Assembly: GCA_002633005.1 (NCBI GenBank)
Contig: NMRA01000031.1
Coordinates: 1,087,004 to 1,151,003, forward strand
Direction of reading: 5' to 3'
Length of the DNA: 64,000 bases
Source: Phoronis australis
Lineage: Eukaryota; Animalia; Phoronida
Shown: positions 1,720-64,000 of the stretch, piece after piece
Layout: each line of letters begins with the position of its first letter
How positions within the stretch are numbered: position 1 is the first letter of the stretch
Notes under the pieces: generated by a model
Databases searched by the model: none
What the model was told of the DNA's origin: nothing
The model's input: the letters and a program-made list of their open reading frames with translations, nothing else
Position numbers and translations under genes: made by a program

Positions 1720-2150
1720 TCAGATAGTTTATTCGTTTGCTGAAGTGCAATAATTATGTGGAAGGCAAAACCAAATTTTTGGTCTGAGGTCACAAGTCAC
1801 TTTTCGTGAACCATACCCCAGGGGCCGGGATCTTATTTGTGTACTCCAAATTAAAATTATTTTTGTATTTTCTATTCTAATTTTGTAAAAACTCAAAATA
1901 AGTGACTTAGTCTGTGCTCGAGTACATTAGGGTTTATGCATACAAGTTTCGAGTCCAAGTTTTCTTTTGGTGACTCCTGCAGACATGCTACAAACTGGAG
2001 ATTTAGAGTAAAAACTTGAAATTTCAAATTCAGACTCAAACTTATAACCTTATGCTGAATAGTGCACACTAAGATAAAAAAGTTATGCACCAAGCCATTA
2101 TGTACTCCAGCACAGACTAATAGCCACTTCTATGGTTTACACAAACCTAG

Positions 2151-2666
2151 AAAAGAAAAGGCCAAAAATAATTTCAAGTTTGATTTCAAGTACAGAGATT
2201 AGATCAGGACACCCTTTTGTATGTTTCAAGTAAAACGATTAGTCCCCAGCCTTGGCCTTATGAAGACTTGATTGGTAGTTATTGCTTGTGCCAAACTCAA
2301 TAGCTCACTTGCGAGTTTCTCGCTAGTCACTGTGACGTCACCGGAAAGGGGGCAAAACCCGCCATATTGCTCTTGTTTTGCCCCGAGTCTTTGCTACACA
2401 CGCTAAAACTTACTGGAGTTCTTATGGTGAATTTTACGCTTAAAACATTAAAACAACTTAAGATATGGTAGATGGGTCGTGGAATAACTGTGAATAGACG
2501 AAGAAAATGTGACCNAAAAGAAAAGGCCAAAAATAATTTCAAGTTTGATTTCAAGTACAGAGATTAGATCAGGACACCCTTTTGTATGTTTCAAGTAAAA
2601 CGATTAGTCCCCAGCCTTGGCCTTATGAAGACTTGATTGGTAGTTATTGCTTGTGCCAAACTCAAT
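2151..2666. repeat. Identical 151-bp direct duplication around an assembly N
   Basis: 2151-2301 equals 2516-2666; the second copy starts immediately after the n at 2515. Confidence 0.9.
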
Positions 2667-11100: not shown

Positions 11101-14100
11101 CTGCAAATAATGAAAAAGTGTCAAAAGCTGCTTTATGACATCTACACACTTACATAAAAGTAATAAACTAAAATTTTCTTAGTTTTCATTTTTGTGAAGA
11201 AATCAGACAGCAGCACATTTTGCGTTAAATAATGAAGGGTTACCATACTATTTGATTGCTGCTATACTTTATTATACTTAGGAACATGCTCTCCATTCAA
11301 TGACAAAACAAAATTGCCTGCTTTCTGTCCAACTTTTTATTTAATCTCGCGTGTGAAGTGGCTATTTAACCAATAATCACCATACTTTTGCCATGATGGG
11401 CCAGCAAGTTATAAGTTCACTCAGAAACCAAGACTTGTCACTTATCAGTTACTACATCAAGATTCACTCTCACACTGGGCACAAGGTCATCACACACATG
11501 TATATGGTTGAATGACCTGCACAGACTTATACTGAAGATAGGAAACAGGTGACATTGTCTGACATAATCTAATTGAGACTGTGAGTTTGCTCTGGGCATT
11601 GGAGGCCCAAAGATCAGATTCTTCAAATTTAAAGCAATCTGTAAGAGTGGGAGTTTAAACTGGGTTGTCTTTCGTAGATCCGCGACATTCATAAAAAACT
11701 AGTCTAATTGTGTACTTCACTTGTAACGCATGGCGATATCACGCGTTGCCTTGGGTGACTGTGCATTTCTTGTGAGTTTGTTTTTAAACAGGAAACAGTA
11801 TTACTGGAAATGGAATTTCATGTTGTCCACTGAGTAAAATTTGCATTGTGTATAGCGAGATGTCACGAGTCGTTGGAAAAAATAAAAAAATTCATCAGTT
11901 AGAGCTCTTGGTCTTGTTCTTAATTGAAGGATGCTTTTTGTAAGTTGGCTAATCATCAATTTTATAAGTGTCATGAGGTGGACTTGAAGCGATAAACAAT
12001 AAAAACAGTTTAATTGGTGTCAACACTAGGAGTTACTTCAGAATAACTTGCCCTCGAACCTCCCCCCCCCTCCTCTCCGTTCAGCTTTGTGTCCACACTG
12101 CATACCCTACACCATGTGGCAAACCTGCAAGAATGATTAGACACTCCTAATATTTTAACTGGGCAAACTCACAAGTGGTAATTACTACGGTGTTGTGTGC
12201 AGATTTGCATGCACTCTATGACTTACAGTTCTCCTTATCTTACCTCGGTAAGGTGGGGCAAGTTGTCACAGGTGTGTCAAGTTGTCTCAGCTAAAAGATT
12301 ACTACTAAACCAACTGACAACTTGTTGCGGGTGTAACTTGTTCAAGGGCAACTACCACAGCTTGCTTATACGAAAGAGATTACAGTCAGTGCACAAGTCA
12401 CAGTCAGTGCACAAGTCACAGTCAGTGCACAAGTCACAGTCAGTGCACAAGTCACAGTCAGTGCACAAGTCACAGTCAGTGCACAAGCCACAGTCAGTGC
12501 ACAAGTCACAGTCAGTGCGCAAGTCACAGTCAGTGCGCAAGTCACAGTCAGTGCGCAAGTCACAGTCAGTGCACAAGTCACAGTCAAGGTACAAGTCACA
12601 GTCAATGCACAAGTCACATTATTCAAAATGATGTGCTAGTGGGTGAAGATTTTTATTTTGTGATGTTAGAGCGCTTCACAAAGTAATGCACGACTGGAGG
12701 TTATGTGGCTGGACTTGTATTCTGAAGTACAAATATGGCATTTGTTTGTTGCCCGTGTTCGGGTAACAGGCCACCGCCAGTTTCTTGAAATTTCATGTTT
12801 AAGCGCCTGTGTCCGGTTAAGCGCCCAGACCCAATTTAACTTCCCAGGGCGTTAATCTGAATACTTCTGGTAATAAAGTGGATGTCTCTGAAGAAATATG
12901 GCGGGGCTTTTATACCGTGTTAGACTCTCTCCATTTTAGGACACAATGTGGCGTACAATTGAAATTATATTTTTTGTGGTTTTCATAAAAGATATTAAGC
13001 ATCAAATTAATGCTTTACCGTGTTAAGTTTTGTACCACATCTGCCTTTTGAAAATATTTTGAAAAAATGTGTTTCACTGTTTGAATCATGCACAAGACTG
13101 GCTTCCTGGTGTTGGCACACAGACTTGTACTAGTTCACATCATGTTGTTGTTCTTACTTTTTACCTGTTGTGATTTGAACTGGTGATGAGATAAGCTAAG
13201 CCGATTGCCTTAGCACAAGTGTAATAATAATGTATAATGCCTCTTAACCTTTAGTAATATTGCATTGTTATTAGGTCCTCGTTGTTATGAGATAATACAG
13301 CCAAAGGGTATTTTAAGAGCTAGCCCTCAGCCACCGCTCCCCAAGATAATGGTAAAATCTAACCAATTTAGGACACGGGTGAACAGGTGAATTTTATTTT
13401 CACCTTTTTCATAAATGATATTCAATACCAGAGAATGATTCTTTGTCGTATCTTGGTTCTGTACCATAGCTGGCTACCGAAAATATTTTGAAAAACTATG
13501 GCTGCTCACAATATTAAAACCGCTTGAGAATTTTGACAATCATTTTGTCTGAAATTGGTGAGGTTTTACTGTAAATAAACATTAATTTGTAATGCCGTCA
13601 GGTTTGAGGTATTGTTCAATGTAATGATACCATGGACATGACACGGAACTCCTCTATCCAGTAATTGTCCGGCACTTAACACACAGGGCTATCCGGTGTC
13701 CAGTGAGGGTCGGAAACCTAACACATGGGACTGTCCAGTGTCCAGTGAGAGTCAGGCACCTCACAAATGGGCTATCCAGTGAGAGTCTGGCCCCTAATCA
13801 CACGGGGCTATCCAGTGTCCAGTGAGTGTCGGTCACCTAAGACACAGGGTTGATCGATAGCCTCACCTCACTTAGTGCTCAAGTCACAAGTAAAATGTTC
13901 ACTGAACCCATTTTCATCCATTGTTTCTTGTCTGTTGCAGTTGTTGGTTACCCAGAGATTGTTGGTCGTTATAGTGATGTCCAAGTGGTCAACAGACAGA
14001 ATGTATCAGTTACGCTGAATTGTACCGTCAGGAATCAGGGCCCTAATACGGTGAGTAGGGTGGACGCAAAAGAAAATCAATCTATATTTGCTATTTATAG

Positions 14101-17100
14101 AAATGTTTGTTTTTCCCCAGATGAAAATTTGAGAAATATTGACATATTGCCCATATTTTCCACATCCGGGTATGCAAGGCGGTCCCAAAAGAGCCTCTGT
14201 TGGGGGCTTTTTTGGACTTATTTTTCCAAAAGAGCCACCATACGGGCTTTTTTGGTCACATGATACTGTTTTCTTAGTCTGGTGTTTTTTTGTTTAGCTA
14301 TCTGGAAAATTATTAACTTTCTCAGTGCTGCAGCATGTATTGTACAAGACAACAGTAATCAGACAAAATATCGTTTTCCCCATCATAACAGTCAATTCTG
14401 TTAACAGCAAAAATTACTGTTAACAACTTACTGTATAAGGTCATATCAAAGGTAATCACTTGGGCATTTGCCACAAATGTCCCAGGTGTCGGAAGACATT
14501 TACCCAAATGTTTTATGTACAAAGACATTTGCTTACCTTTCATAAAATGTAGTATTTTAGCCAGCCGAGACTGATGACTCTCAGTAAACTAGTTCTAATT
14601 CTGATATTTCTTTTTTGTCTTGGCATTCTTGCGTGTCTGTGCCTTTTTTAAATGTAATTTATTGCCTAATATCATATTTTTGTATATTAAACATGTGGTT
14701 GTTCACAAAGTTGATGCGTAAATCAAAATATGGTAAAATGTTGGGCAAAGATATTTGCTAAAATTTCCATTTCTTGATTTTTCAAGGATTTTTTGCAAAT
14801 GTTATGAATGCCTTTTATTTCACAAAACATGAGGTGGTAGCTATGGTAACAGAACTTGAACAGGAAAACCTGTTAATTTGGTGCTAAATATCTTCCATAG
14901 AAAAATGAGAAAGCAAAATTTCACTTGTCATCCATGTTGTTTCCTTAATTGGCGAGATTTTAGCGTAGAAGTTAAAAATGAAAATCATTTCCTTGGTAAG
15001 GTCCGTGTCCAACTTAGCGTTGTTACTAGTGTATCACTTCCTGTTTTACATGTAGTTCTCAAAAAGTCTGTATTACATGCAAGTTCGGGTTGTGGGGACA
15101 TCTGTTGGTCTCTAATTGTTGACTGCCAATCTGTCATCCGAAGCTCATGGCTGGTGCATCAGAGCTATTTGCACACATTTTGTCAATAAAGCGGAGGATG
15201 ATGCGCCATGGAGAAAACTGCATGGAATTATTACCGCCTTATCTTTTACTTTCCTGTACAGTTAAAGCCAGTTAAATATAAGGGCGGCAAAATTCGGAGT
15301 ACAGAATAGCTTAATTGCTGTGCTAACAGTCCTGTTAACTCCCCTTAATTCTTGATCATGAGAGAGGAGTACTCTGACGGTGAATTCAGCTCCTGCCCGG
15401 CCGCCATGATGGGTAATTCGGGAGCATTTTGTCTGAATACTTTTGGCTCGTACTGTACCGTATTGGATGGGGTACCCGGAATTGTTCTCTTGTTTTATCG
15501 TGATATAACATATCAAGACTCTGTCAACAGAGGGGAAGATAACAAAATGTATTTTGATCACCGGTTACGACCAAAAGTTTAGACGCAGTTTACACCGTTG
15601 TTTTTTTGATGATGGCTATCTTTTTTCCGAGAATGCTCGGTTTGGTAAAGGCTGTGGAATGTATTTGCAATTTTGTTTTTACCGGTATACACGCATTTAA
15701 GGTGATGTAGCACCTTATCAACAGTTCTGTTCATTCAGCCAGAAATATACAAGCATGATTCATCCCTTAATATATTTTCTGATAGTAGAAAGGATTTGAT
15801 TTTTACCAATTTTCCATTGATTTTATCACATGACCCTGCCGTGCACAACATAGCCTGAAGTAAACTTGCAGTATTAGTAAAACAATAGTATCAATGACAT
15901 GTTCAGTGTGAAAGCTTATCACGTTACTTTTGTGTTATGCAGTTTTTGATTTCGTTCTTAAGATTCATTAACGTCCGACTTTTGATAGTCCCCTCTTGCA
16001 AAAGTGGAACATTTTCAAAACAATTTGGACGTACATCCTTTTTTAGAACGGAACAAGAAACATACAGTGCCTGAAAGTTTTATTTGAATACGATCAACCA
16101 CTTCAAGATGTGATGCCAAATTTGGATGATATTCTATAGTCCTGCAGTGCTGTATCATACTGCCCAATTAAAACACCATGAATTTAAATATTTACTTTGT
16201 TTCCTACTGCAGGTAAAATGGTCATTATTAAATCGAAGGGTGCTACAAGTTGGCATCTCGAGAAACACCAGCTTAGTGCGTGGACTGAGTGCTTCAAAGT
16301 ATGAGTTAAATGTCGTGCGTGCTAGCTCACGTGAGGTCACGTACAAGTTGACAATCAAAGATGTTAGTCTCGCCGACGCTGGAAGCTACATGTGCGCCGT
16401 CAAGATTAACGGCACGAACAACTTCCCACGGCAGGTGGTAATGTTGAAAGTTGTTGGTAGGTGGCACTTTCTGTACTAGTTTTTTGTACTTGGCAAGACA
16501 AGAAAAATTAGATTTGGCATATTCACGTGAAATGGTACAGTTGTTTACACATAATTTCATCCCAACATCTGCGTTTATATCTTGGTGGGGCGTGACTTGC
16601 ATTTCTTCCAGGTATTTTTCGTCTGTTGTTTAGCTCAAAACTGAGATATATGGCGCTCTGAAATTGTCAGGATGCGATAAAAGAACATCTAATTGTTCTA
16701 CATGCACGGAGCTGTACTGCTTCAGATATCCCTGTATTCAAAAACATTGTGCCCTTAAGTTCTATTAAAGCAGCCCAGAAGTGTTTAGACTTTTTCCACT
16801 GTAACAGAAGTGTTTGTAATACTTGTTGTTTAGTTAAGATCTGCAGATACACATTGCTATCACAACACAATTCAGGCTGCACTAGGTACGCCTCACTCTG
16901 GATGGAGAAAGAAACTTGTTTGCTCTCTCATCAGTCATCTGTGAAGCAGAGTTGGTCTGGGCCCCGTTATCTGTTCTCCTAGCTTTAGTGTTTACGTAGT
17001 GCGGTGACCCTGCAAGTTGAATTCTTGCCTCCATTCCTATTAGAGTCCAGCTGCAGAATTTGTTTCTCAAACCGTTTACTCCACCCTTCAGCGCTGGACA

Positions 17101-20100: not shown

Positions 20101-23100
20101 CGTGCCAAGTAATGGGGTCTGTAATTGTATCCTCTCTGTGTTGGCCTGTTTTGAAACATCACTGTGAAATATCACCTATTTAGGACACAGTATGGCAGAT
20201 AAATGAAGTTTTGTCTATACTAAACTATGAAAAGGCAATGCTTTGAGGAATTTTCAGCATTCACGACAATCAAGTCTTTGAAAAATAACAAAAGTTTAAG
20301 TTTCACAATTATTTTTGTCCAAAATTGGTGAGATGTTACTGTAGTTAACATAGAAGGTTGATTAATTTAAAATACATGTTTTGTACATGTAACTGTTGCT
20401 AGCTGTTAGAAGCACATGGCATCAGTTGATGTGTGATACATATGCACTAACTTTAAATAATTCTGTTATTGGTAATAATAGAATGATTATAAGGATAGTT
20501 ATTTTAGTAAATTGGTCATTTTGATTGTAACCTTGTGTTGTTTTGCTGTTGTATAAAGCTGGAGATTTAGAGCTAGTCTGCTTTCTGGTGTGAATAGTGG
20601 GAAAATGTTAGAATAAATTGATGTTGTGTCCGAGGTTCAGCAAAATGCTCACTGTCTTGGGCTGTATTCATTTAGAGTTTGAAAGTGATATAGCTAGAAC
20701 ACTTTGAGTTAAACTGTTTTAAATTCATCACGCGAAACCAAAGTGTTTCAAGCAGGAACGTTTTAAAAGGTCTTACGTAAGCATAATTTTATTCCTCCCA
20801 GAATTATGCTTTTTTCTGTCTAAAAAGAGAGAGCGTTAATGAACACCATGCTGAGTGTTGTGTCATATCGTGTAACGTGTGTCAAACGACAATTTGAAGC
20901 TGTTTTAGCGATATCAAGTTTGCCATGTGAACTCAATGCATTTTAAACAAAATCATTTTAGGTAGAATGTTATGAATCAGTGCTTGTGTGAATCAATGCT
21001 TAATTTGTCCTCAACCGTTTGTTGTTTGTAGAGGAATGCTCAGCCGACCTGTTTGAGTGCCGTCTTGAACACAACCCAGGTCGGCGGTGTATCTCCTGGA
21101 ACTGGGTATGTGATGGGGATCCAGACTGCCCAGACGGTGAAGACGAACCGGACAACTGCCGTAAGTTCGGCCTTCCTGACACTTCTACAGAGACAAAATG
21201 GCAACATTTTGTAAACTTTATACCTCTCTTGGTCGTGTTAAAACTTGGGTTTTCTAAAAAATCCAGGGATAAAGTTTAAATCAAACACAGCAAAATATGG
21301 TTCTTCAAGTTATTTAAGACCTTATTGACAAGTATTTTGCCAAATATCTGCAAAATTATAGGTTTTGGCCTGATAGAAGTCACGCTTATACTGTTATGCT
21401 TATACTGATGGTAACTGAACTATCTGCAGTAATGACTTTGTTACGTACGCGACCAAGGAGTTTAAATAATTCTACAAGCGCACCTCTAAAATCCAGGTAC
21501 GACCCTGACACTGAAACTCCAGGCTCGGACCAGAAGACACCTTACCCACTGTACAGATTCATTTGCGCCCCTAAACTCCATGCATGCTCTGAAAATGATC
21601 CATACACACTGATCAAACTTTCTTTCCGGGGACTAGATTCTGTGGCTGTATCTCTAATTCACAGTTGGAATTTAGAGGCATGGCGGGGAGTTTAGGGGTA
21701 CAAATCTAAGGATTTGTACCCCTAAACTCTAGGCCACTCTTGTACCACGGGTTTGCTGTCTGCTGATCCAGGACGGAGTTTAGGGGACTATGGGTGGAAT
21801 TGAGATATTGATTGTGTCCCTTGACAACATGTTGCTAAGTAATCAGCTTACCACTGCTATTCATAGAAAAACTAGCATTGCATAATGTGACTTGTGGGAA
21901 TTTGGTAATTAATTGCAATTTGTTGAATTATGCTCGTAATCGATAATTAACTGTATCTGGGAGAACATTTCAAAAAAACAATGTCGACATTTATTTACAT
22001 AAATTATATATTATGCAAATTTATTTACGGTGTAATGACCTGCAAACTGATTTCATTAAATTTGTTGACCACAAAACATGGGTGTGAATGTCAAAATGGT
22101 CTTCATGTAGTACTGCATGAGGAATTTACAAGCATAAACAGAAGTTTGAATAGTGGTGGTCACTGTTAGCATAAATTATGCAAATTTTTCATGAAACACC
22201 CTGCAAACTTGTCTAATTCACTAACTTTGCAAGAAGCATGAGTAAAACGTCAAAATAATCTGTCTGCAATCCTTATTAAGGAAGCTTTTAGTTAAAACAG
22301 TTATGCGTTATGGTGCCCATAATTTTGCTAATTTAAAAATGTTCAACCCTGCTTAATTGCTTCTAACCATGAAACAATCCAAACACTTTATACTAACTCA
22401 TTGTTGAGGCTCAATGAATGAACTGACCCCACGTGTCAAGCCTACGCATTAGGTCTGGTCTTGGGTGACAGTGGACAAAAGGTCTTTCCAAACCCAAGAT
22501 CACTTTAAATAATTAAAAGAAGCTTAATTTTTAGTGGCTGTAAAATTCAGGGGTGGACATCTAACAGAACACTGCCATTTGCCCCAATGGATATTATATT
22601 TTTGGAGCTTGCGCGGTTTGGTTGTTATGTGTTTCTACTGTTCACTGAGCACTGCTCCAACAGTGAATAAGTCATTGTCATGATGACCCTGGGGCTGGTT
22701 CAGAACCAGCCACAGGGTCATCAACTCACCATTATAAGTCTATGTTCATAAACGATGGTTTAAAATCATCTTCACATGTTGCCGCATTCATTAAAACGTG
22801 GTGGCTGCTGTTTTTGCTTTTGAGGATGCTATTTTATTTGACGCCGAAATGTGTCATGCTGGTTTAAATCCATTGTTTTTATCAAGATATGCTGTTCCTT
22901 GATATCGTCGAGAATATAAGGCTAGTATTTTATTGAACTTCTATACTTTACACTTTTACTTGGATGGGATGTTGGAATTTTTAAATCGTACAATCAAAGT
23001 TTGCTTGCAAAATTCAGAAGTTTTGTTATTTACACATATAAGTGTAAAATCAGTGTTCCTCACATGCAACACCTCACAAACCTGCTCACTCTGAAACATT

Positions 23101-26100
23101 TTACCGTAATTGCTGTCTTGAATGCTATTTTAATTGTCATTCCAATGCAAAATTCTAAATTTAATTACCATTCTATAACCCGCTGAGAATACTTTATTTT
23201 AGTCAGCAGATGCCAAGTAAAAGCAGGGACCACCTACCGAGACTGCTGTTGATCTTGCACAATTATCATAATAACTTAGTAATGATACAGGTCATTCACT
23301 AATTGCTAACTATTAAGGAAAATAGGAAAGTTAATTTAGCTAAGTAATGTGTTTGTAAAAGCAGCAATTAGAATTTGCTTGTAAATGCTAAAGTGAATTA
23401 AGTCTTGTTTTGTAAACAATGTCGTTCACGTTTGCACCACAATCTTCCTCGACCTATTCTAGAGCTTTACTTTAAATTAGTTAATGGGTTGAAACTGCAT
23501 GAGTCAAAGATTAGTGTGTCTCATAAAGTCGAGGGAAACAGTTGTAGAATGGTGGTATACTATAACTCAATGTTTGTTTAATGGGTGTGTGTTTGTAATG
23601 TTTTATTCGTCGCTGATCTTATACATGATGGAGGCCATTTTTCTGTCCTGCCAAACCTACTTGTGAATTTTTTTCCTGGCTGTGAAATTTCTCACAAAAT
23701 GGGAAGATGTATTATTTTAATATTTTTTCTTGCCGATGAAAGCATTTCCATAATTTTAGTAGTTTTTTATGTTAAAAGATTTCATTGCTACAGTAAAAGT
23801 CGCAAGTAATCGGACAAAATACATTTTCCCACATCACGGCGGCTAATCCTGTTAATAGCAAAAGTGACTTCTATTAAGTATCACGAGGGAAAAATAATTC
23901 CTTGGCCACCTTTAAGTTACTAAGGTTACTGTTAATTATGGTCATGCGGGAATTTAGTACTCTGACGATGAACTTGTCGTCTGCCCAACCATTGGTATGG
24001 GGAATTCTGGGTAATTTTATATGAATAGTTTTGACATTTAGTGTACTTGTCTCCAACATTCTACGAAAATAATCTTTAAGTGTCTCAATTTCCAAGTGTT
24101 CAATCAACGTTAGCAATTCACCAATTCGGGATAGACCAGAATTTGAGACTCAGAAATTGCAGCAAAAATAAAATTTCTTGATTTTGTAATTTGGGACAAG
24201 GGCGATTTTGGCATGTACCGAGTTTCTCAAAATTTCGGACAGTGTTTTCAATGTGCAAAGTAGGTGATTCTTGAATTTGGAACGGCCAATATTGCGTATT
24301 TCTAGAATTTGGAACAGCCAGTATTGCGTATTTCTAGAATTTGGTACAAGCTCCGACCTTGAGCAAAAAAGTGAATGTTCACCGTTCCAGTTTGGAGAAT
24401 TTTTGCCGTAATTAAGGAAACATTAAATATCCTGACCAGATGTTGTGCTGAATGCTTTCTCTATGGTTCTTGCATGGGGCAAATCTGTTAGTTTAGATCT
24501 GTGGAACATTTTGGTCAGAGTAAAGTCTTTGCATGACTCCACAATTAATCGTTTCAGCGGAAGTCACCTGCAAAAGTGAACAGTTTACCTGTAACAACAA
24601 CAAGTGTATACCTATGAGCTATGTCTGTGATCGAGATAATGACTGCTCAGATGGCTCGGACGAGACAATTTCAGCATGTAAGTATGATTGATTGTGTATT
24701 AATTTACAAGTGCTGATAATTTAGTTTGAAAATTTGTAACACAAGTAAGTGTTCGCTGCATAGTCCTGCTCGTTTTTCAGGAAAAGCTTACTTTCTTAGT
24801 TTCAAAGTTCTCAGGGCAGGGGTGTTTAAAATATTTGCTTCTTTCTCTGCATGACTTTTTATGCGCCCACATAGTTATATGTGGACGCATTATGCCATCA
24901 TCCCCATCTGTCCGGCGTCAGTCCGTTGTTCGTTGGGCATCCGTCCGACGTCCATCTGGCGTCCGCTGCTCTATCTCCAAAACCCTTCGACGTATGTTCA
25001 TGAAATTTTGCACTTGTTTTCCTTTCCTGGATGGAACAGTATGAGCAAACTTTCGGACATATCCAATTACTTTTTACGTTTACCTCTGTATCTTCAAAGG
25101 CACTCAATGTATTTCATAAAATTTGGTATGTAGGCATCTATTAGTGAGATGACGCTATCCTCCCGTTTTTGGATGGATTCGGCAAAGTTTACGCCATCTG
25201 GTGGCCATTTTTACTGTTTTCGAGTCTTTTTTTTGGCATCCACCCCTCTATCAAGCAAACTGCTCTAAGAGTGACTGTGAAGATTAGCATGTATGTTCTT
25301 ACTATGAAGGAGACGGCTGACGATATTTTTCCGACGACTTCGACTACTGTGGCACCTCCTAGTGGCAGTTTTGTTTTTTTTGCTCCCATGGCTATATCTC
25401 CTAAATCGTTTGGAGGATCTTTTCTAAAATTAAGAAGTGTATTTATATGATGTTGGCAACGGACAACGACAACTTTCGGATGGATCTGAACACCAGTGTG
25501 CCCCTAGTGGCAATTTTATTTTTTTACATTTACCTCTGTATCTTCGAAGGTCCTCAACAGATTTATTTTCATAAAATTTCGAAGATAGGCATTTGTTGGT
25601 GAGATGACGTTATCTTCCCGTTTTTGGATGGAATGGAGGTATTTTGTGCCACTTACTGGCCATTTTTGCTGTTTTCAGGTCTGTTTTTTGGCGTCCAACC
25701 CTCTATCAACAAGACCATTCTAAGGATGATTTTGAAAATTGGTGTATATGTTCTCATTGTGAAGAGAGCGGTTGATGATGATGACTTTGACTACTGTGGC
25801 GCCTCCTAGTGGTAGTTTTGTTTTGTTTTGCCCCCATAGCTGTATCTCCAAAACCCACTGCACAATCTTAAAGTTAGTAAGTGTATTTATGTGCAGCTAA
25901 CTACAGACGACAATGACATTTTTCAGGCAGATTCAACTAACACTGTGCCTCCTAGTGGTAATTTGATTTTTTTCCGTTTTCCTTCTGAAGTTCCTCGCCT
26001 GATTTTTGAGATTTGGTAAATAGCTTTCTATCAAAGAAGCTATGGCATGTTTTTGTTTTCGGACGGATTCGACGTTTTTGCGCCATCCAGTGGCCATTTT

Positions 26101-32100: not shown

Positions 32101-35100
32101 CATCTTTGTTTTGGTTTGGCACGAATTTTTGTTCAAGATTACATTATGCATTGAATGGGATGTGTTGGTTACTTGCTTACCTCAGGTAACCAAGTCCTGT
32201 GCAGCTAGATTTAATAACTGCAATGTTGGTTTATCTAGGTTTGAAATTTGATTTTAGCTTGATCTAATTATTGTAGTTGTATGCAATTTAGTACATGTTG
32301 TTGTTTATTGTGTATTGAACAGGTTTGCCGTGGCTGCACTTAACAAGTACGATAGTGTGTTTGACTTGGCTCTAGTTGTATTTTTGTTTTTTTTGTGTTG
32401 TATTTTTCCTAACTCTCTCATTGATGCATATTTTATTCTATAACAAGCTTGACCTTTAATAAAAGAATAGCGTAATTGAGAGTACGGTTGATACCTGAGG
32501 AAAGAAACGAGTAGCGCTTTGTATTGCAGTTTTGACAATTTACAACTGATAAATTGGAAACTACTTTTGTTTTAATGGATGCACTGTCCATTACCCAGTG
32601 ATTTGTCCAGTCACAGTGTGATATTTGTGCGTTTTCACTGCCTGGCAGGTGCCAAAGAACCATTCCACTGTCCACCCAACATGTATCAGTGCAAGAGGAC
32701 CACCGTTTGTATTAATATTAGTCAGCTGTGTGATGGCAGACAAGACTGCCCTCTAGTGACTGGTGATGTGTCTGAAGATGAGGGACTCCACTGTTCACGT
32801 ATGTATGATAATGCCACTGTTTTTGACGTTTCCAAAGACTACATTTCATGCAAACCAACCCAGATGGAGTGGTTTTATAGAATTTGCGAGTCCGTCTACG
32901 AAATTACATCAACAGTACAATCCTAGTCAGTATTTGATTCGATAGGCAATGTGGTCAATGCCTGTTATTCTAGTTGCTAACATATTACGAGTTGATTAAA
33001 CACTGTTGCGTTACATATCATTAGCTGAAGATTGAAAATGTTCAGTAATTGTCTGATATGTTATGAGCCTTTCATAAAGTTCATCTCTAGATCTCGTGTA
33101 ACTATAGCAACTGTTTCTACTGTAGGTGGCGGTCTTTGTCACAGGCAGGGATGTTCGTATGGGTGCAGGGAGAGCCTGCTGGGCCCACTTTGTTACTGCC
33201 CACCTGGCCAGCAGCCCTATAACACCACCTGTAGAGGTAAGAGTTGTCTCCCCTGTTTATGGTAGTAACTTGTGAGGAAATAGGTGTAACTCTGTGGCAC
33301 TCTACATTTGGACACCTTCATGACTAACTTATATTGCAGGGCTTGGAATTTTCCACGGAAACACGAATTTCCGCTTTTTTCAAATATTCTGTCCGCGCGT
33401 TTTATTATATTTCCGCGTAAAATAATTGGATTTGATATAAAATTTCCACGGCAAATTCCTTTCTTACCGCGGCGTTGCCGACGACGTTCACCTCGAAAAG
33501 CGGAAGTTGCTCTTTATGTTTCGGAGGAACGTAAATTGTCAACATTGCCGGAGCATCTGGGATAGCGTGGTGGGATTTTCAATGGCGTCTCGTGTGATTG
33601 TAAACCGTGGTGACAAATACTACGGCTCTGCAGCCAAAAATGTGTGGGGATGAGAGTGGAGGAGTGGATGGACGAGATAAAAAGACGCAGACACATGCTA
33701 CTGATGGTGGCAACTTTTTTTTTCAGTCCAACTGATTTTTGTCGGCGAAAGGTTGGCACATCGACTATTTCAAGGCTGGGTAGCGCGCATGTTTTGGGCT
33801 GTAAAAGTGTCCGCGTTTTTTGTCATTGGTCATTCCAAGCCCTGATATTGGGAATGAACCCTTTCAAATATTACTCCCTGGCCGTGTATGGACCGCATTT
33901 CATGGGCCAACAACCTTTTGAGCATGTCCCACGGCAACCTAGTTTACTGAAATAAACTCTTTATTCCGTAATATAATGGCTTGTTTGGTTATATTTTGAT
34001 TGAACTGTACTTTTGACTTAAGACAGGCAATTCCAGGATGTGCGACTCGTGCATAAGATTAAGGGCTCGTGCTTCGGATTGTCTTGACATCCTTGTCATA
34101 AACTTGTGTTCATTTTGAAATGACCTTTTCCAACATTGCAGACATGAATGAGTGTTCATCACTGCCTGACGTCTGCTCACAGAACTGCGTGAACACAGAT
34201 GGGAGTTTCACGTGTTCCTGTAAAAGAGAATATTACCTGGCTAGCGACAGACGGACTTGTCTGGCAAAAACTGGTATTTACGTGAATGCTGCATATTTTT
34301 GCATATAGATGTGTAATTATTCCCAGTGAATGTTTAAATGTTTACATGCTGTATTTTGTATTGAAACATTTTGAAGGTTATGTTGATTTGGTTATACAAT
34401 TTCTTGGATGTTATAAAAACATGTTCATGTTTTGTAGTCAAGAATTTGTCATTTTATGTCAGCTCTTTGCTTGTGTCGGTAGAAACCGCAATCTTTAATG
34501 AAGTTGTCTTCATATTCCGCTTTATTTTCAGATATGAAGAAACCACTCCTCATTTTCTCTGATGGTTCAGACATTAGGATTGCTTTGCTGAATGGAACAA
34601 TAACACGGAACATTTCAACAGACGGAGTAGCGGCTCTCAGTCTCGATGTCCGCAAAAAACAAGTATGCTGGGTACGTATATGCAAATTGACCGTGGTTGC
34701 TATGTACTGCAAAGACAACAAATTGAAATCATTATTCAAGTATAGACTTTTCCAGAGAGCAATATCAGGTTACATATTGAGCAAGGGAGAGTAATTTTGC
34801 CTCAGACCAAAGGCAACATTGCTGTCCTGAAGTCCATATAACCTGGAATTGGTCTATGTTTGTTGTTCTATACGACCTCTGATTCTTCTTTCCTCTGATT
34901 TCTACTTCTCGTATTTGTTGTGTTGCTATCGTCTGCTCACTTTGTTTACATTGTCAAGAGTTTATGGTTTCTGTAGCATCTGATTGGTCAATTCTCGAGT
35001 AGCTACCTCAGTTCATGGCGGCTTGAATGTAAAGGGATATTACATGGCTTGAGAGTCGGCATCTCATTATAATGGAAATCACTGTATTGTTTTTAGCGAA

Positions 35101-38100
35101 CCGTAGAGCAGAAATATCGATGATCGTGTAATAATAAATTGTGTGATAACTGCATGAAATATTCCAAAGATTGATTCCTTTTAAGTGGATGTTATTAGTT
35201 ATTTGTTGGCATTTTTGGCAGAAGATATCCCAGATGCCAGTACATACAAAAACCCTATGTAGGACCACCTTCTATTTGTGTTGACAGTAGAGGTGAATGT
35301 TTTGGAGGTTGTGCTGTTAATGGTGTACAAATTGGTTTCTTGCTGGGTTATGATGGCTCGTGATTTGTTGGAGAAAGAAAACTGCGATGGAATAACACAA
35401 ACTTCATGTTGTTTTTCACTGGGGATCAGACTTCAGTGATACTTTTGTGAACTTTCCGATGGTGACTACTTCGAGGACTACGTTATTTATGAACAATAAA
35501 AATTTACCACTTCATAAGTACTTAATGACCTATAACTGGCATCCTCTCCAACTACTGTTTGTGTTATGAGTACTTCTAGTGCTGCTGCTGCAACTGCTAC
35601 TGCTACTGCTTCTACTTCTGCTGCCGCTGCTGCTACTAGTACTACTACTACTGGTGCTACTGCTAATGCTCTTGTCCTAAGCGCCTAGCTCTATACTCCA
35701 TCTGTTGGCCACATCTCGTAACGTTGCTTATACCATGTCAACGCACTGATTTTTGACAGGACAGTTATAATGGAACTATGTAGTAACATCTAGACATTCC
35801 GACAGGTGAGCGAGAAGGCTCAGATGTTCTGTAGCTCAGTTGAGGTGCCCCACAAAACGTGGCGTATCAGTACGAGTTACGTGCTGGATGGAGTCAACCA
35901 AATGGCAAAGGATTGGTTCTCAGGAGACTGGTACTTCACGGCTGGTGACCGAGGCATGTTGTTCGTCTGCTCCAAGGAGGGGCGCTTCTGTAAGACGTTA
36001 CTATCCACCAACTCGACCAGCTTGAAAGACATGGTCCTTGTCCCTGAGTTGGGGTAAGAAAAACTCATTGGATGTTAATCTGATTATTTGGTCATTCTAT
36101 TTTAAAGAAGTTATTAGACACTATTGCTGTGAACGAGCTGAATATAGGTTTCTTGTCAGAATTCATGTTGTTGAGAATATCTACTGTTTTTTGTCACTTT
36201 CGTAGGTCATCTCATCCTCAGTAGTAAAACTGTATTCTTGTGAGTATTAACTCATCTCTGCGCATAAGAACACCAGTAGCTTTTGCTTATGTTTAGTTAT
36301 AAACTTTTTTGAGCTGGTCAGTGCCCACTACACGGAAATTAGCCAGTTGCGTAGACACACTTTTAAGTCAAGTATTGAGTATAGGTTGACATCTATGAGT
36401 AATCAAATGATGCCTTTGTGATCAGCTCGTATGTGGACGAATAGTAATTTATGGTTGTTAAATCCGCTGTGCTCGTCTCGGCTAGGTACATCTTCATCAC
36501 TGAGCTGGCCAAGTTTATAGACCAGCCGATCCTCTCAAGAGTCAACATGGACGGCAGTGGCTATACACAGTTAGTGAATCAAAGAATAGCGCGACCGTTT
36601 GGTCTGACTGTCGACTACCCCAACAACAGACTTTACTACCTTGACTCTTATCTTCACCATATCCAGTTAGTGTCGTTTGATGGGAAACAGCGGAGGACCA
36701 TCTTTGACGATCAGTTGGTGAGAACAATTCTTAATCATACGTTAATTAGCTGGTAACTATAATGGTTACCGAGGTGCTAAGGACCATTTTTATTGTCCTG
36801 GTCATTTCAATGGAAGGTAGTCTAACACACAGATAGTTGACCTTTCACCTTCAAAGTTGGTCTTTGTTACTCAACATGTCCACTGCTTCAGATTTTTGTT
36901 TTAGACAATGTGTTGCACAGTGCGTAGCTGTAGTACCAGTGGGGCTCATTACTCTACAGTTGTGAAGTTGTTTCCTTGAGCAAGGCACTTAAACTACGTT
37001 GTTTCGTTCACTCAGCTGTGTAAAATGTGTACAAACCCTATCTTGGAAGTAACCTGTGATGAACTAGTGAGCTGTCTAGGGGAAATTGAAAGACTCTCAT
37101 CCAATCACCTTACTGGTTCTGGGGCTACCAATAGCAGTGAATGAAATTAATCCGTTAACTGTCGAAAATCAAAATTTACTGACTATTGAGAATCCATTCA
37201 CTGACTATCGAATCAGTTCACCGGCTATCGAATCAATTCACTGACTATTGAATCAATTCACTGACTTGATCAATTTGAAATTGAGCAATGATTAGTAAGT
37301 ACGTCATTTGTTGCTACTTTGTGTCACAATAAAAGATACGGTCAAACATGGCAATAGAAACGTAATGTTCTTTTTGTATTTTTTGTATTATGAGAAATAG
37401 AACTAGTGATTGTGAAATTAAGTGCTTTTCTATAAGGCTTAATGATGGTGAGAATGTAGTTTTACTTCAAATCACAAGTTGATACATAGTGTTCACGGTG
37501 CTCGCTCTAATTATTTTAATTTTAACTTGCGACATTGACAATTATCCTTTCTATATCAGTATCCCTATATCAGTATCTCTGTAACAGTATATATCAGTAT
37601 CTCTATATCAGTATCTCTGCGTGTCTAGGTGCAGCACGCCGTGGGATTAGAGAGTTTCGAAGATTTTCTCTTCGTGACCAATCCACAGGACAAGAACATA
37701 GTCAGACTCAACCGTCGCAACCCTAAAAACAGAATGGTGTTAATTAGACACTTGATCCGTCCCGTGCATATCCACATATATCACCCGGTCAGAGAACCTG
37801 ATCGTGTCGGTAAGTGACCATCTGGTTGTATGATTATGCATAGTACCTTCAAGATACATGAAAAACTCATTTTGTGAGTTGAATTGCACGTCCGTGTATT
37901 CAGCTACGCTCAACGTTTGTGGCAAAAATTGTTTTTTAATACGTCTGCTTTTTCACAAGCAGTTTCAGTCTGGTCGCCATGTCGATAATGAAAAATCATG
38001 AAAAATGGAAAACACATCTTGGAAACTCACAAACAACACAGTATGATTAGTGACCATTGGGTAGGTTTTGGCACATGTCACAACACAGTTGTGGAATAAG

Positions 38101-41100
38101 GCCATTTATGTCGTGCTACAAAGTTGTCCAATGAATAACTTCTGAACTTTATTCAGCCCAGTCTTGCTATTGGTACATATGACGAGCTTAACACTAAATG
38201 TTGCTCTCAAACTGAACCTTTTGTGGTAACTTTTTTAATTTCCAAATGATTATCTTTCAATTTTCAGAAAAAAATGGGGTTTTTTTTCTGAACTTCTGTT
38301 GGCCCACCAATAGAACTTTCTTTGGTATAAGATAAGAATTGAGAGTAAAATATTAACTCTCTTAGAGCCTAGAGTTTAATTATATTTTCAGTTGGATAGA
38401 CTAATGCTATGTAATAACTGGTAAAAGCTATTGAATCTTTAAAAGGCATATGTGTGCATTTGTGCCACAGGTGTCTCTGTTCTTGAACTGCTGTATTTTA
38501 ACACATGTCGTTTCTCCTGTCCAGCCTATTCGCCAGCGGACTCGTGCAACCGTAGATGTCAGCACTTGTGTCTACATCGGAGGGTGAATGGACAGCTGAA
38601 GGCAGCGTGTCATTGTCAAGATGGATACAAACTTTTTAATGAGACGGCATGTCAGTGTATGTGTCCAACTGTTTTCAGGGTTATGGTAAATAGTTCAAAA
38701 ACGATTTGCGAAATGTTTGCTGTGGCTAGAATTAACTAAATGTGCCCATACATTATCAGTCTATCACAATGACTGTTTTTGGTCATTTTAAGCGGGCTTG
38801 TTTTAGTGAGGCCTGTGGAAATACAAGGAAGCACTAACTTCAAACATACTTTCGCGAGAGCAAGGAATTCACTTGTGATGCCCAGTCTCAAATTCTGGTC
38901 TGCAGGACAAAACACGATTTCTTTCATTCACGGGCATTTTGCAACTTTTTTGCGTAAATTCGTATTCGGCGGCATAGTGATTAGAAAGAATTTAAGGTTA
39001 TCTCGAACCTTATTTAGTGGCCTCCATTGTAACTCATATATCAATGAACTAAGCTTTGTCAACTAGAAAAAGTATATATTTTCTGAAAGAAAAGCAATCA
39101 GGGAATATAAAATTACTTTTTTAATTAAAGTACCGTTATTATATTTACGTAAAAACCTTTTTAAATCAAAATTTCATTTTTAACAAAGGTAGAATCATAG
39201 CCAAGTAAGAAATGGATAACAAAAATCGATTTGGCAGTTAAAGCATGTCGTTAGCATGAGATCGAAACATCGAAATGTCAACTTAATAATTGAATTAAGG
39301 AATTAGGATGAGGATTATATCTCTTTCCACAAATTGCTGTGTTCGTGACCACAGAGGCCTGAGGCGACAGTAGCATTCGTTTTCAATGCCAACGGTCGTA
39401 TGCATGTAGATGGGGATCAAAACTACGTTTTGTCTTTGTTTTCCCCGACACCATTCTATCATAAGTACACCTCGTTGACTCAATGTTACGGCGATTTGGT
39501 GAATGAAAGGACTGAGGGTACACGAAGTTGTTCTGTACCTGGCGGGAGATTCGATTGGATTGAAAGCCCTTCAACGTTTGACCTCGGATAAGTAATTAAC
39601 AAATATCCACGCGGTTGTGTGGTTCCATGGTGGTTCTCTTTTTTTTCTCGCTACGCAATTATATTTTGTATTTGAAGTTCCCGGAGAATGAAGATAACAT
39701 ATTTTGCTAGACACGTGAAATATTGTAGAAATGGCCAGTTTTTGTGAATAAGGTTTGAGATATCCTTAAAGATGCTGTGAAATCGAACTGTTTAATCTCC
39801 ATGCAAGTCACAGGTGAGCTGTAGGTGGCGCTGAACATGTTCTTCCGATCACTTTATTTCCATGTAGCGATAAAGCTCTTATTTCGTGATGATGCCATTA
39901 TTACGGGAAACAGCTATTGACACTTACTTGGAAGGTCCTAATTATACGCTTTGTTTATATTTTTCAGTAATCTCCGACGTGTCATTCCTCCTTTATACTT
40001 CCAAACGCCAACAGATGGTGCGAGGACTGTCTCTTGTGAATGGCTCCGATGTCATGTTTCCCATACAGAAGGTCCGGCGCCCCCTTGCGGTTGACTACCA
40101 TTATGGCAGGGGCGAGATCTACTTTGTTGATTCATCCAAAAATCGAATTGGCAAACGCCGCTTGACTGGAGGATTTGTCGACCAAGTGGACTTCACTGGA
40201 GCGAGTATGTTTTCTTCGTAACCCTTAATTCGTATCCTATGATTTTATTACGATTTAGTTAAAATTCAATCCGGAATTGTTGACTTGGAGGTGAATGACG
40301 TCTTAGGGATGTGTTGATTGAGACTGTTCTACATTGCAGATTTATGTGAGCTTACTGCTTTCAAGCTGTTGTCAAACCTGCTTAAGCAAGCATTTGACAA
40401 TTCAGGCTTTGCAATGCTGCTCAAAACATCAGATTTAATGTAAAGTACGAGTCAATGTCATGCACGAGCATCAAGTTGTACCCTCAAACCCCTGAATCCT
40501 ACACACAGACCATATTCTTTGTTAATGACTTGTGGTTCAAAGGAATGGTTCCATACTGATGGTGATGGCTTTTTGTGCTCGTTTAACTGTAGAAATGTAA
40601 TTGTCAGTAATTAAATTGTTAAGCAAGAAATCCCCAAAGATATTATGTCATCTTTTGCAGGCGTTGTGTTTATGAATTTGCTGTTTGTTTGTGTTATTTT
40701 TCGTTTTACTTGAACTTGATTTCGCATTTCATGCGTGTAATTCAGTGGGTCGTGCGGCTGTGTACAGATTTTGATATGGTATTTCATGTTTCTCTAGGAC
40801 TTCACAACTGTGAAGGCATCTCTGTAGACTGGATGGGCAATAACTTGTATTGGACAAGTGGTCATCTCAAGTCTATCAATGTACTCAGCCTCAACAAGTC
40901 TAACATTTACAAGGTGTTACTGCGTGTGATGGGGGAGGCAGATGAACATGTCCACCCTAAAGCCATTGTGGTGGATCCAGCACACGGGTAAGGGGCACAG
41001 GTTTTTCAATAATTAGGTCCGGGGACAAATATACAGCTGTCAGTTTTACTTGTTATTTAAAAAGCTTTCAATTGTTAATCAGTATATATTCTGCGGTTTT

Positions 41101-44100
41101 GCTTCACTAACCCACTGGGAATAACCACTGATGAATATTGTGAACCTTGACATTAATATAGTATTTACAATGAAGGTAGCAATGTAAAAAGTCGTTATTC
41201 GTTGATCAGTTTCTTGTGGGAAAGTTTTCTTTACTATATTGAAAATGTCAGGTGTGTTAACATTATAAATTCTTGGTAATATCAGAGAAGCAAAACCTAA
41301 TAAATCCAAATTTTTCAGGCATTGTGTGCTAGATGTGTTAAGTTTGTCGCTTTTATTTTTTCACTGCACCTCCTTGTTTCAATAACGATGGAAAATGAAT
41401 TTAGGTCGAATGGATCACGAAGCATTAACTTAAAGCCAGCTGCACACTATGCGATTCTGCTCGACATATAGAACTTCATGTGACTAGTACTGAGAAGAAA
41501 AACGGTTCTTTTGGTACCTACTTTTTACCACTATATTATTGATTGTTGTGGACATATAGCAGTGTTTGAGTACAGTGAGCAGGCCTCTTTACAACTTATT
41601 ACAGGTATGTATACTGGTCAAACTGGGCGTCGCTGTCGGTAAGCATATCTGAAGCATCTATACAAAGGGCTGGTATGGATGGAAGTCTGAGGACAACGTT
41701 TGTGAGAGGAGGGATACAGTGGCCAGATGGACTAAGTATAGACCACGTGGCCAGGCGACTGTTCTGGAGTGATGCCTTCTATGACAGGATTCAATACGTG
41801 CCACTAGATGGGGATTCAGTTAGAAGAGTAAGTGAGCTGCTAATTAAACAATGATCACTGAAACGTGATGGTGTCGTGGGTCTTCCTTAATTAGGGAACT
41901 TAAATATTAACATTTTTCTGAGCTTTGCATGTGTGGGTCAAAACTGACGCAACTTCAAAGACGTAAGACAAAATAAGAATGGAGCAGTTTGTTAAGCCAT
42001 GAGTTCCAACCATAGTATAACTGTGGCTAACATCAAGTGTTAACTTGTCTTATTTCGTGACTGGGTTTTTGTGACGATTGCAAAATTAGATAAAGATGTT
42101 CCAACTCTCACCATTGTTTGAAATTGAACGTTCCGAGGTTATAGCAACATTATCTAAGCAGCGTTCAATATAAGTCGTATGTTTATTTGTATAACTCAGT
42201 AGGTATTTTCTTCGAACCTATGGGTTCTTGTTTGTGATGTTGAAGTTCATGCAAAATAAGTGAATTAGAAATGGGGTTTGCTTGTCTCATACTTGTTTTA
42301 CTTTCTCAGTAAATGTGACTATCCAGACCTTATAGTAAACTAGCAATCTTCAGCTATACTACATGTAAGTGACTTTGTTTTCAATGTAATGTCTTCTGCG
42401 CATTGCAATGGTGAAAGAACGGCTACCTTTTCCCACAACTCAGTGCACAGATGACTCGTTAAGCACTCTACGTTAACATCGAATTTTAGTTATTAGGTGT
42501 TATTGAGTTACGTCAGGCGTAATGTTCACTTTCCTTCTAGCCCACCACAGTAGTGCGTACCTCCAAGTCTCCACACGGCATCGCCTATGGCAACAACGTA
42601 GTTTATTGGACTCAAGTGGCTGGATCTGTTCTGTCCTACAACCTGAGCTCCAACAAGACAACTAATGTCCTGAACAGCAAGACAGGAGCCTATGACATCA
42701 AATTGTATGGGCCTGGCTTGCAGACAGGTGAGTTGGTGGTTACTCTGCTAGGGTGAGATTTACCACTTTGTGTATAAGTGACCTAACATAGTGAGCTTGA
42801 TCTCAAGCCGTTGCAAACTTTTAAGCTTGCTAATCACTTCTAATGTTAGTAATGAACAACGTAAGACCATTTTTAGAACTGTAAGTAGTCTAAGTCAAGT
42901 CTTATTTGGTGGAAGGCAGAGGTTTGTAGCTGCTTGAAATTATAAGGTGTGTGTGACATTGATAACGAAATTGAAAACGAATGGCAAGTTACCTCCTTGT
43001 GTCGCTTTTCTAACGGATACGTGACACTTTGTAGACGCCACTTGTGTGATTTTGCCTAACTTGGAACAGAGCAAAAATGTTAAAGCAAGTCTGGTTAGTA
43101 TTTTCAGAAGCTCAAAAACCTGCAACTTGTCAAAATGATGCATACGAATTCCACCCCAGGCAGTACTTCAGTGAAAACTAGAAGTTTCAACTCCCGTTAT
43201 TTCAAGACTTGAATTTAGGTACATTTCTCACGGCAAATACAAAGACCAAATGTATGAGAACTCCCCTTGGGAATGCTTGCCTGTCACAAAATAATAGTTA
43301 CACTTCTTGTGAGCTCCAGGATGTGCTAGCTGGTATGTGATTGTCTGCTTTGTGCTTTCTAGGCTCCAATCAGTGTTCAAATTATAACGGCGGTTGTTCT
43401 GATCTTTGTCTCCAAACACCAAGAGGCACCCCTGTATGCCTGTGTGGTGATGGACGGAAGGCTGTGGGCGGCAAAAACGATCAGTGTCAAGGTTTGTGTT
43501 GTCTCTTGCACAGATAAAGACTTGTATCCATCATGGGTGCAAAATAATGCATTTATAAAAATATTGGTTATTGTTTGCTGGTTTGGAGACATACCAGTGG
43601 CACACTTGTAAGCAAAGTCCAGGTAATTCAAACTAGAGCCATCAAGGCTATCCTGGGTATTAGAATTAGGGACACCTGGGTCAATGAGTTGTAGTTCAAG
43701 CATGGATTTATGAAAGTTAAACAAAGCGTGACACGAAACTAAAATTATCATTAAGTGAATACAGGGTGATTGATGACAAACATAGGGAAAAAAGGTAAAT
43801 ATATAACTTCAAATACTGTAAACAGTTACAGACTTCATGGTTATGTGCTGTGTATCTGTAATAGATCTCTTATTTCACAATACAATACAGTTACATATAA
43901 TAATTCCTCTGGACAACCCTAAGACGGTCCGGTGAGGTCCGCTACCCTTGTGGTGAGGATTGTGTGTGAACATTTTGTAACGTGATGTTTTTGTTGGTTG
44001 TAGATGATAGCTCGTACACGACACCATCACCATGTCTGAGTACAGAGTTCCAGTGTGGTAACGGAAGGTGCATCTCGCAGCGCCTCACCTGTGATGGGGA

Positions 44101-63455: not shown

Positions 63456-64000
63456 GTAACTTTGTGACAAATTATTGTATATACCTCAGCACCTCAGACA
63501 TTTAGAATGGTCCCTTCGCTGAGAAGCTTGTTAATCACCAGATGGCGCTTGCAAAACAAACGCTCAATATAGCATCATTGTAACTGTAACAAAACAGTAA
63601 TTAAATCCCATTGGTCTAGCTGAACAGTGTTTCCTTTTCTCACTCTGTTCAGATAATTAGTGGAGTACCTAGTATCCTTCATTAGCGCCACCTGGTGAGT
63701 AGTGAGTCTCCCCTTTTAGGTTATCATATTGTTGTCGATAGAAGTGATTTTTTACGTTTTGGTTATGTGCAGTTTTGACCACAATAAGACTTTCCTGTTT
63801 TAGAACTTTTACTATTGTACAGTTGTTGTTGTACCTTTGCTGAATGTGAATAGAGTTGGTACAGAAACATAGAGGATAAAAATGAACAAGTTTCTGGAGA
63901 GCTAGTGTGTAAAAATCTTCAGCTAGAAAGGAGGGTAGAGTCATTTTTTAAGAGATCGTGTCTTATAAGGTCAAGTGATTCATTGTGTGCTGTGTGGGAA

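What the first reader, a model, noticed from the sequence alone, without database searches (positions are those of the whole stretch)
13941..16456. An immunoglobulin domain apparently grafted onto the N-terminus of an LRP1 endocytic receptor
Seen: two clean exons (phase 1-0-1) encode a complete V/I-set Ig fold ([16 protein letters not shown]...[18 protein letters not shown]). They are on the same strand as, and frame-compatible with, the downstream LDLa exons, and I see no stop or terminal exon between them. Known: canonical LRP1 begins with a signal peptide followed directly by LDLa repeats, and Ig domains are not among the standard LDL-receptor-family modules. The LxCxVxNxGxxTVxW and TYKLxIKD...DAGxYxC motifs resemble the first domain of lachesin/Dpr/DIP (IgLON-like) recognition proteins. 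Inference: exon shuffling produced an Ig-LRP1 chimera that could couple adhesion or immune-type recognition to receptor-mediated endocytosis.
Basis: partly seen in the sequence, partly recalled or inferred. Interest (0 to 1): 0.85.

Follow-up and report, generated by a model that had tools for sequence, protein, structure and literature searches.

The report
Antibody-like domain added to LRP1
In this invertebrate, two expressed exons encode an antibody-like (Ig) domain that is likely spliced onto the front of the giant uptake receptor LRP1, a layout absent from the other animals' LRP1 proteins checked, and it would likely give the receptor an extra partner-recognition site.

Summary
Exons 13941-14050 and 16213-16456 encode one V-type Ig domain in phase with an LRP1 orthologue of a lophotrochozoan. 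RNA reads show the two Ig exons spliced together, a hydrophobic signal-peptide-like exon from outside the window spliced in front, and LDLa1 spliced to LDLa2. The key junction, 16456 to 21032, was not listed: coverage is 1-5 reads and the tool lists only 3 or more. It is inferred (about 0.9) from read bookkeeping: equal depth on both sides, no loose ends listed at either site, no read-through, and crossing reads that fit wholly inside the stretch. None of 166 LRP1-type N-termini has an Ig; three N-terminal LDLa repeats are the protostome norm. No bivalve, chiton, cephalopod or annelid was sampled, so the lineage range is open. Kinship to Dpr/DIP/lachesin/IgLON is weak and unproven. Most likely the Ig is a phase 1-1 module gained between signal peptide and cluster I that adds a binding site feeding LRP1 endocytosis; function is untested. 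New variant of a known receptor; interest 0.45.

The parts
13941..14050 (+). Ig exon a: end of the predicted signal peptide, then the A, A' and B strands with the first Cys; phase 1 to 0
   Evidence: Sequence; 4+9 reads splice into it from an exon outside the window, and 3+2 reads splice it to 16213; that upstream exon's end is not found in the window
16213..16456 (+). Ig exon b: C-strand Trp to G strand with D-x-G-x-Y-x-C; phase 0 to 1
   Evidence: Pfam V-set/I-set; read depth 3-4 (X1), 4-5 (X2), about 1 (X3) per base
21032..21160 (+). LDLa repeat 1 of cluster I (orthologue of the first repeat of gastropod LRP1)
   Evidence: Pfam Ldl_recept_a E 2.4e-10; 61% to Gigantopelta LRP1 residues 32-72; 4 reads run on into the 24558 exon
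24558..24677 (+). LDLa repeat 2; its sixth Cys codon is completed only by the splice to 32649
   Evidence: Pfam E 3.9e-15; sequence
32649..32798 (+). LDLa repeat 3
   Evidence: Pfam E 1e-6; collinear with LRP1 orthologues
33126..34273 (+). EGF exon (33126-33236) and calcium-binding EGF exon (34142-34273)
   Evidence: Pfam EGF_CA E 1.4e-9 for the second; the first has no Pfam hit alone but matches Lineus LRP1
34507..63502 (+). Rest of LRP1 in the window: YWTD propellers 1-2, cluster II (eight LDLa repeats), propellers 3-4 with EGF repeats; the gene runs off the 3' end
   Evidence: Collinear chain of 28-31 tblastn segments against three LRP1 orthologues; tree

Best explanation
This lophotrochozoan LRP1 gene carries two expressed exons for one Ig domain that are likely spliced between the signal peptide and the first LDLa repeat, so the mature receptor would begin with an Ig domain that likely acts as an added binding site for a protein partner, whose capture would feed LRP1's normal endocytosis. 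Shown: the Ig exons, their splice to each other, the upstream hydrophobic exon, LDLa1>LDLa2, and LRP1 orthology. Inferred: the Ig-b>LDLa1 splice (about 0.9); gain by insertion of a phase 1-1 module into the phase-1 intron behind the signal exon; signal cleavage just before the Ig A strand; binding through the GFCC'C'' sheet as in Dpr/DIP/IgLON IG1 domains; and uptake through a tail that lies beyond the window (mechanism about 0.55 if the splice is real).
For:: 13 reads join a hydrophobic, in-phase exon to 13941 and 5 join 14050>16213; no loose ends are listed behind 16456 or before 21032; bins 16551-17800 are empty in all 3 runs; in X2, depth is 4.1-4.8 on Ig-b and 4.3-5.0 on LDLa1 against 0.10 in repeat-free intron bins. 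4 reads cross the 21032 acceptor, but only 1 of 32 partly fitting reads is left after repeats and the two listed loose ends, so at least 1 and probably 2-3 crossing reads continue inside the stretch, and Ig-b is the only in-frame donor there; 0 of 166 LRP1-type N-termini have an Ig, while both positive controls were found. Wirin IG1 domains bind through the GFCC'C'' sheet, and Dprs, DIPs and lachesins expanded in molluscs and annelids (PMC6525511, passages). Clusters II and IV carry most known LRP1 ligand binding (PMC11325810, passages), which would leave the N-terminus free to change.
Against: The 16456>21032 joint is not listed in either lay. The bookkeeping rests on how the tool counts partly fitting reads, and up to 2 of the 4 crossing reads in X2 may have only short overhangs. 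The upstream exon and Ig-b both end in G, so the matched base before 21032 does not tell them apart. X1 could not be resolved. No orthologue with the Ig was found, so there is no evidence of conservation or selection. The family of the Ig is unresolved. The three raw-read runs come from one study and only about 18 in 100 of each was read.
Confidence: 0.55

Rival explanations
1. The splice is real, but the strongly basic Ig folds back on, or shields, the receptor's own acidic LDLa repeats as a tethered RAP-like cap (or binds polyanions), tuning access to cluster I rather than recognising a new partner.
For: Ig pI 10.3 (6 K, 10 R, 6 D/E) beside repeats of pI 4.05, 4.05 and 5.4; the IG1 of the DIP/IgLON-like L002 protein has pI 5.9. 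[quoted passage not shown]
Against: Most of the charge is Arg, not Lys; four N-glycosylation sequons may cover the surface; the Ig-LDLa1 linker is only a few residues long.
Confidence: 0.15
2. The splice is real but the Ig is a recent, nearly neutral passenger or spacer, possibly an optional cassette: skipping both exons would join the phase-1 signal exon to LDLa1 in frame and give ordinary LRP1.
For: No homologue with the Ig found; the phases allow skipping; 1 unexplained partly fitting read in X2 could be a skip read.
Against: Ig exons are covered as deeply as LDLa1 in all 3 runs, so inclusion looks like the main form; the domain keeps both Cys, the Trp and the F-strand motif without stops.
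Confidence: 0.2
3. Two genes: a small secreted single-Ig protein (signal, Ig, stop just after the 16456 donor or in an unseen last exon) lies upstream, and LRP1 gets its own signal exon from elsewhere.
For: The joining reads are not listed; read-through of the donor reaches a stop after 7 codons.
Against: No coverage at 16551-17800, and the first poly(A)-like hexamer is at 16764; no loose ends listed at 16456 or 21032; no expressed non-repeat exon in 16457-21031 and only one weak signal-exon candidate there; bookkeeping needs a within-stretch joint. A true joint would go unlisted 22-46% of the time at this depth under the usable-read shares assumed.
Confidence: 0.1

Closest known systems
LRP1 (LDL receptor-related protein 1), protostome form as annotated in Gigantopelta, Haliotis, Patella, Lineus and Lingula
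   Same: Three N-terminal LDLa repeats, EGF-EGF-propeller-EGF-propeller-EGF, eight-repeat cluster II and propellers 3-4, collinear; groups with lophotrochozoan LRP1, SH-aLRT 99.
   Different: An Ig domain of about 115 residues lies between signal peptide and LDLa1; 0 of 166 LRP1-type N-termini have one.
IG1 domain of Wirins (Dpr, DIP, Klingon, Lachesin, IgLON; PMC6525511)
   Same: V-type Ig at the N-terminus; neurotrimin IG1 is the best whole-exon PDB match for both exons, collinear but weak; 38% to IG1 of a three-Ig DIP/IgLON-like protein. An intron just before V-x-W is recalled for Dpr/DIP genes and comes from no call.
   Different: A single Ig on a giant endocytic receptor rather than a 2-3 Ig surface protein; much more basic than the one relative measured; the interface core was not tested.
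Other proteins with both Ig and LDLa modules, such as perlecan (recalled, from no call)
   Same: Ig and LDLa modules in one chain.
   Different: They lack LRP1's YWTD/EGF/cluster order and are not LRP1 orthologues.

Membership tests
LRP1 | Signal peptide at the N-terminus | tested here: inconclusive
   Only the last 30 bases of the upstream exon are seen; they read as a hydrophobic stretch in phase. The start codon is outside the window and no signal predictor was available.
LRP1 | Cluster I of 2 (vertebrate) or 3 (protostome) LDLa repeats, then EGF-EGF-YWTD | tested here: met
   among 166 N-termini 95 have two repeat motifs, 62 three, 9 fewer.
LRP1 | Cluster II of eight LDLa repeats between propellers 2 and 3 | tested here: met
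   Eight repeats at 44003-50134.
LRP1 | Groups with LRP1 rather than LRP2 in a tree | tested here: met
   Quick IQ-TREE of 25 rows, midpoint root: inside the 22-row LRP1 clade (SH-aLRT 100); the 3 outgroup rows were labelled LRP2-like by me from their architecture.
LRP1 | Clusters III-IV, furin site, transmembrane helix, NPxY tail | not testable with these tools
   Beyond the 3' end of the window; no genome is held.
LRP1 | LDLa1 directly follows the signal peptide | tested here: not met
   The signal-like exon splices to the Ig exon in 13 reads; this is the variant feature.
V-set/I-set Ig domain | B-strand Cys, C-strand Trp, F-strand D-x-G-x-Y-x-C, Cys spacing about 65-75 | tested here: met
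   Spacing 70; Pfam V-set best, just under its cut-off on exon b alone; Atlas look-alikes V-set/I-set at 0.93.
Wirin (Dpr/DIP/Lachesin/IgLON) | IG1 groups with Wirin IG1 domains in a tree | not tested
   No set of Wirin sequences was obtained; similarity searches are weak and mixed.
Wirin (Dpr/DIP/Lachesin/IgLON) | Two or three Ig domains on a small membrane-anchored protein | tested here: not met
   One Ig motif in the 64 kb window, in phase with LRP1 exons. GPI anchoring of Dprs/DIPs seen only as a search listing (PMC10863630).
Wirin (Dpr/DIP/Lachesin/IgLON) | Hydrophobic core on the GFCC'C'' face and IG1-IG1 dimerisation | not tested
   No confident model of the whole domain was obtained; the feature is from PMC6525511.

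The most novel reading that the evidence does not exclude
A Wirin-derived (Dpr/DIP/lachesin-type) IG1 recognition domain has been captured at the tip of LRP1, so that this animal's LRP1 is at once a cell-identity adhesion partner and the receptor that internalises or clears what it recognises, for example Wirin-bearing membranes in neural pruning or haemocyte clearance.
Probability: 0.25. Interest if true: 0.72.

Novelty: new variant of a known kind. Interest (0 to 1): 0.45.

Why it matters
LRP1's domain order is stable from nematodes and arthropods to vertebrates in the set examined, and six literature searches found no LRP1 with an Ig domain. A natural Ig-LRP1 would show that the N-terminal intron of this receptor accepts new modules, and would give a clean case for asking how a recognition domain is coupled to endocytosis. 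The weight is limited: it is one species, N-terminal domain gain is an ordinary route of change in animals, and no partner is known.

Tried and rejected
No genome is held, so the first exon and the 3' half could not be read. The run index listed no RNA holder of the stretch; the runs used came by species label. The first lay (13700-33400, likeness 90, 4 runs) was swamped by intronic repeats: 15 joints shown, 196 hidden, none exonic. Word search with exon b among proteins of 143-2000 residues: 58 candidates, none at E 0.01 or better (weak, since full-length LRP1 was out of range). A search with the Gigantopelta tail to reach non-gastropod molluscs returned only 6 gastropods of 9 candidates. The metagenome scan gave 2 loci among 595 pattern-matching stretches, a titin-like and a DIP/IgLON-like gene, neither with LDLa. 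Signal-exon scan of the introns: 4 weak candidates; the one at 6095 is not the exon seen in reads. AlphaFold2 on exon b alone gave pLDDT 53 and no Foldseek match at E 0.001; not used. The complex job (Ig-a, Ig-b, LDLa1, calcium) gave no answer, score 0.03. The careful tree did not finish; the quick tree was used. One script crashed part-way. Earlier-finding look-ups near this place, by sequence and by words found nothing on this gene. I rejected the idea that the third N-terminal LDLa is part of the novelty, since it is the protostome norm.
Full report
Observation. Joined inside a script with the next five exons (21032-21160, 24558-24677, 32649-32798, 33126-33236, 34142-34273), they give 331 codons without a stop: Ig, three LDLa repeats, EGF, calcium-binding EGF. 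The Ig has Cys residues 70 apart, the C-strand Trp and the F-strand motif. Exon b alone scores Pfam V-set at E 3.5e-5, just under the curated cut-off; exon a alone scores nothing. The exon-b motif appears once in the window and never in 100 resamples. No assembly N lies between 2515 and 59611.

The gene. The exons from 21032 to 63502 form a collinear chain of 28-31 segments against Gigantopelta, Lineus and Lingula LRP1. A quick tree of 25 rows places the window gene in the LRP1 clade and among lophotrochozoans (SH-aLRT 99), outside the clade of 9 gastropods; its class is not resolved. The 21032 exon matches the first LDLa of gastropod LRP1 (61% over 41 residues), the repeat that follows the signal peptide directly in those proteins. 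The 24677>32649 splice was not seen in reads, but it completes the sixth cysteine codon of LDLa2 and follows the orthologues' order.

RNA. Four runs carried the same species label. The first lay was swamped by repeats. The second (13801-21300, likeness 97, runs X1-X3, 44, 46 and 14 reads laid) listed the joint 14050>16213 (3, 2 and 0 reads); loose ends before 13941 in 4 and 9 reads with one consensus, which reads in phase as a hydrophobic stretch ending in a small-residue pattern, as a signal peptide would; and loose ends behind 21160 in 4 reads that equal the start of the 24558 exon. The upstream exon's end is not in the window, so the first intron exceeds 13.9 kb. All exon coverage has the first mate on the minus strand.

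The key junction. The joint 16456>21032 was not listed, and neither were loose ends at either side. Listing needs 3 reads from 2 starts, and at 2, 4 and 1 crossing reads a true joint would be missed 22-46% of the time under the usable shares I assumed. Indirect evidence favours it. In X2, depth is 4.1-4.8 on Ig-b and 4.3-5.0 on LDLa1, against 0.10 in repeat-free intron bins. Of 32 partly fitting reads, 18 are repeat pieces, 9 are the upstream loose ends and 4 the downstream ones, leaving 1; yet 4 reads cover all of 21031-21050. Even if 2 of these have only short overhangs, at least 1 continues inside the stretch, where Ig-b is the only in-frame donor. In X3 the 10 reads with 20 or more unfitting letters are all accounted for by repeat pieces, which leaves 190 read-bases in Ig-b and 85 in LDLa1 for 2-3 reads; with 2 reads a junction is forced, since no read exceeds 151 bases. 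Bins 16551-17800 are empty in all three runs, against a read-through 3' end. Against: this is arithmetic on rounded depths and on how the tool counts partial reads; X1 could not be resolved; the runs share one study; one skip read cannot be excluded. I put the splice at about 0.9.

Relatives. A search of 50%-identity representatives with a propeller exon, a search with Bulinus LRP1 residues 100-900 (907 hits, best 120 listed) and three cluster look-ups gave 360 proteins. 168 matched the window's first-propeller exon; 2 were dropped by the position and score filter. Of the 166 kept, 0 have an Ig before the first propeller by motif or by phmmer, while both positive controls were detected; 95 have two LDLa motifs, 62 three and 9 fewer. 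These rows are not independent (many fish, many isoforms). Named taxa are gastropods, nemerteans, a brachiopod, arthropods, nematodes, echinoderms and vertebrates. No named bivalve, chiton, cephalopod or annelid was retrieved, and an attempt to reach them failed. The architecture could therefore be shared with an unsampled group. Searches with the Ig itself found no orthologue.

Which Ig. For exon b, the PDB matches that cover most of the exon are neurotrimin and OBCAM IG1 (E 0.001-0.011), but multi-Ig proteins such as VEGFR1 and pIgR rank higher on the short F-strand motif. For exon a the only 2 matches at E 10 or better are neurotrimin (E 1.7-2.1). Locus L002, a three-Ig protein resembling DIPs and IgLONs, is 38% identical over 82 columns. 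This is a lead, not membership. The domain is unusually basic (pI 10.3) and has four sequons.

Mechanism. The module is bounded by phase-1 introns, as are the upstream exon's donor and the LDLa1 acceptor, so it could have entered that intron without breaking the frame (inference; the orthologues' introns were not examined and no donor was found). The mature protein would start at the Ig. The most likely role is an added binding site whose partner is then taken up by LRP1's usual route: Wirin IG1 domains pair through the GFCC'C'' sheet (PMC6525511, passages read), and most known LRP1 ligands use clusters II and IV (PMC11325810, passages read). Rivals are a tethered basic cap on the acidic repeats, given that LDLa repeats bind lysines (PMC8239462, passages read); a neutral or skippable passenger; and two separate genes.

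Literature. Six searches combining LRP1 or LDLa terms with Ig, invertebrate, mollusc, annelid, lophotrochozoa, domain shuffling or exon shuffling gave no paper on an Ig-bearing LRP1, judged from listings and abstract starts. A paper on LDLR-family evolution has 0 occurrences of 'immunoglobulin' or 'Ig domain' in its main text (PMC10339998, passages). Subscription journals are not covered and no supplements were read; automatic annotation of this or a related genome may already hold the model.

Verdict. A real, expressed Ig domain, very likely the N-terminal module of this animal's LRP1. It is a new variant of a known receptor, of unknown range and untested function. Interest 0.45.

Noticed in passing
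window 24856-26150: Intronic repeat that draws deep, stranded RNA coverage (bins up to 250-350 deep), mostly from reads 90-95% alike, so from other transcribed copies; many internal rearranged joints.
   Followed up: no
window 13957: G>T in 6 of 9 reads of X2 and 0 of 4 of X1; a Glu-to-Asp change at the start of the Ig, probably an allele.
   Followed up: no
window 12382-12618: 18-base tandem repeat, 13 copies, 95% alike, in the long first intron; it creates spurious long ORFs.
   Followed up: no
window 2150-2670: About 150 bases are repeated on both sides of the N at 2515, which looks like an assembly join; it lies upstream of the finding.
   Followed up: no
window 34507-37810: The first YWTD propeller is much more diverged (32-42% to orthologues) than the third (50-77%); whether this goes with the Ig gain was not tested.
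   Followed up: partly
L002 146-1134: A three-Ig DIP/IgLON-like reading frame in two offset pieces on a short metagenome contig.
   Followed up: partly
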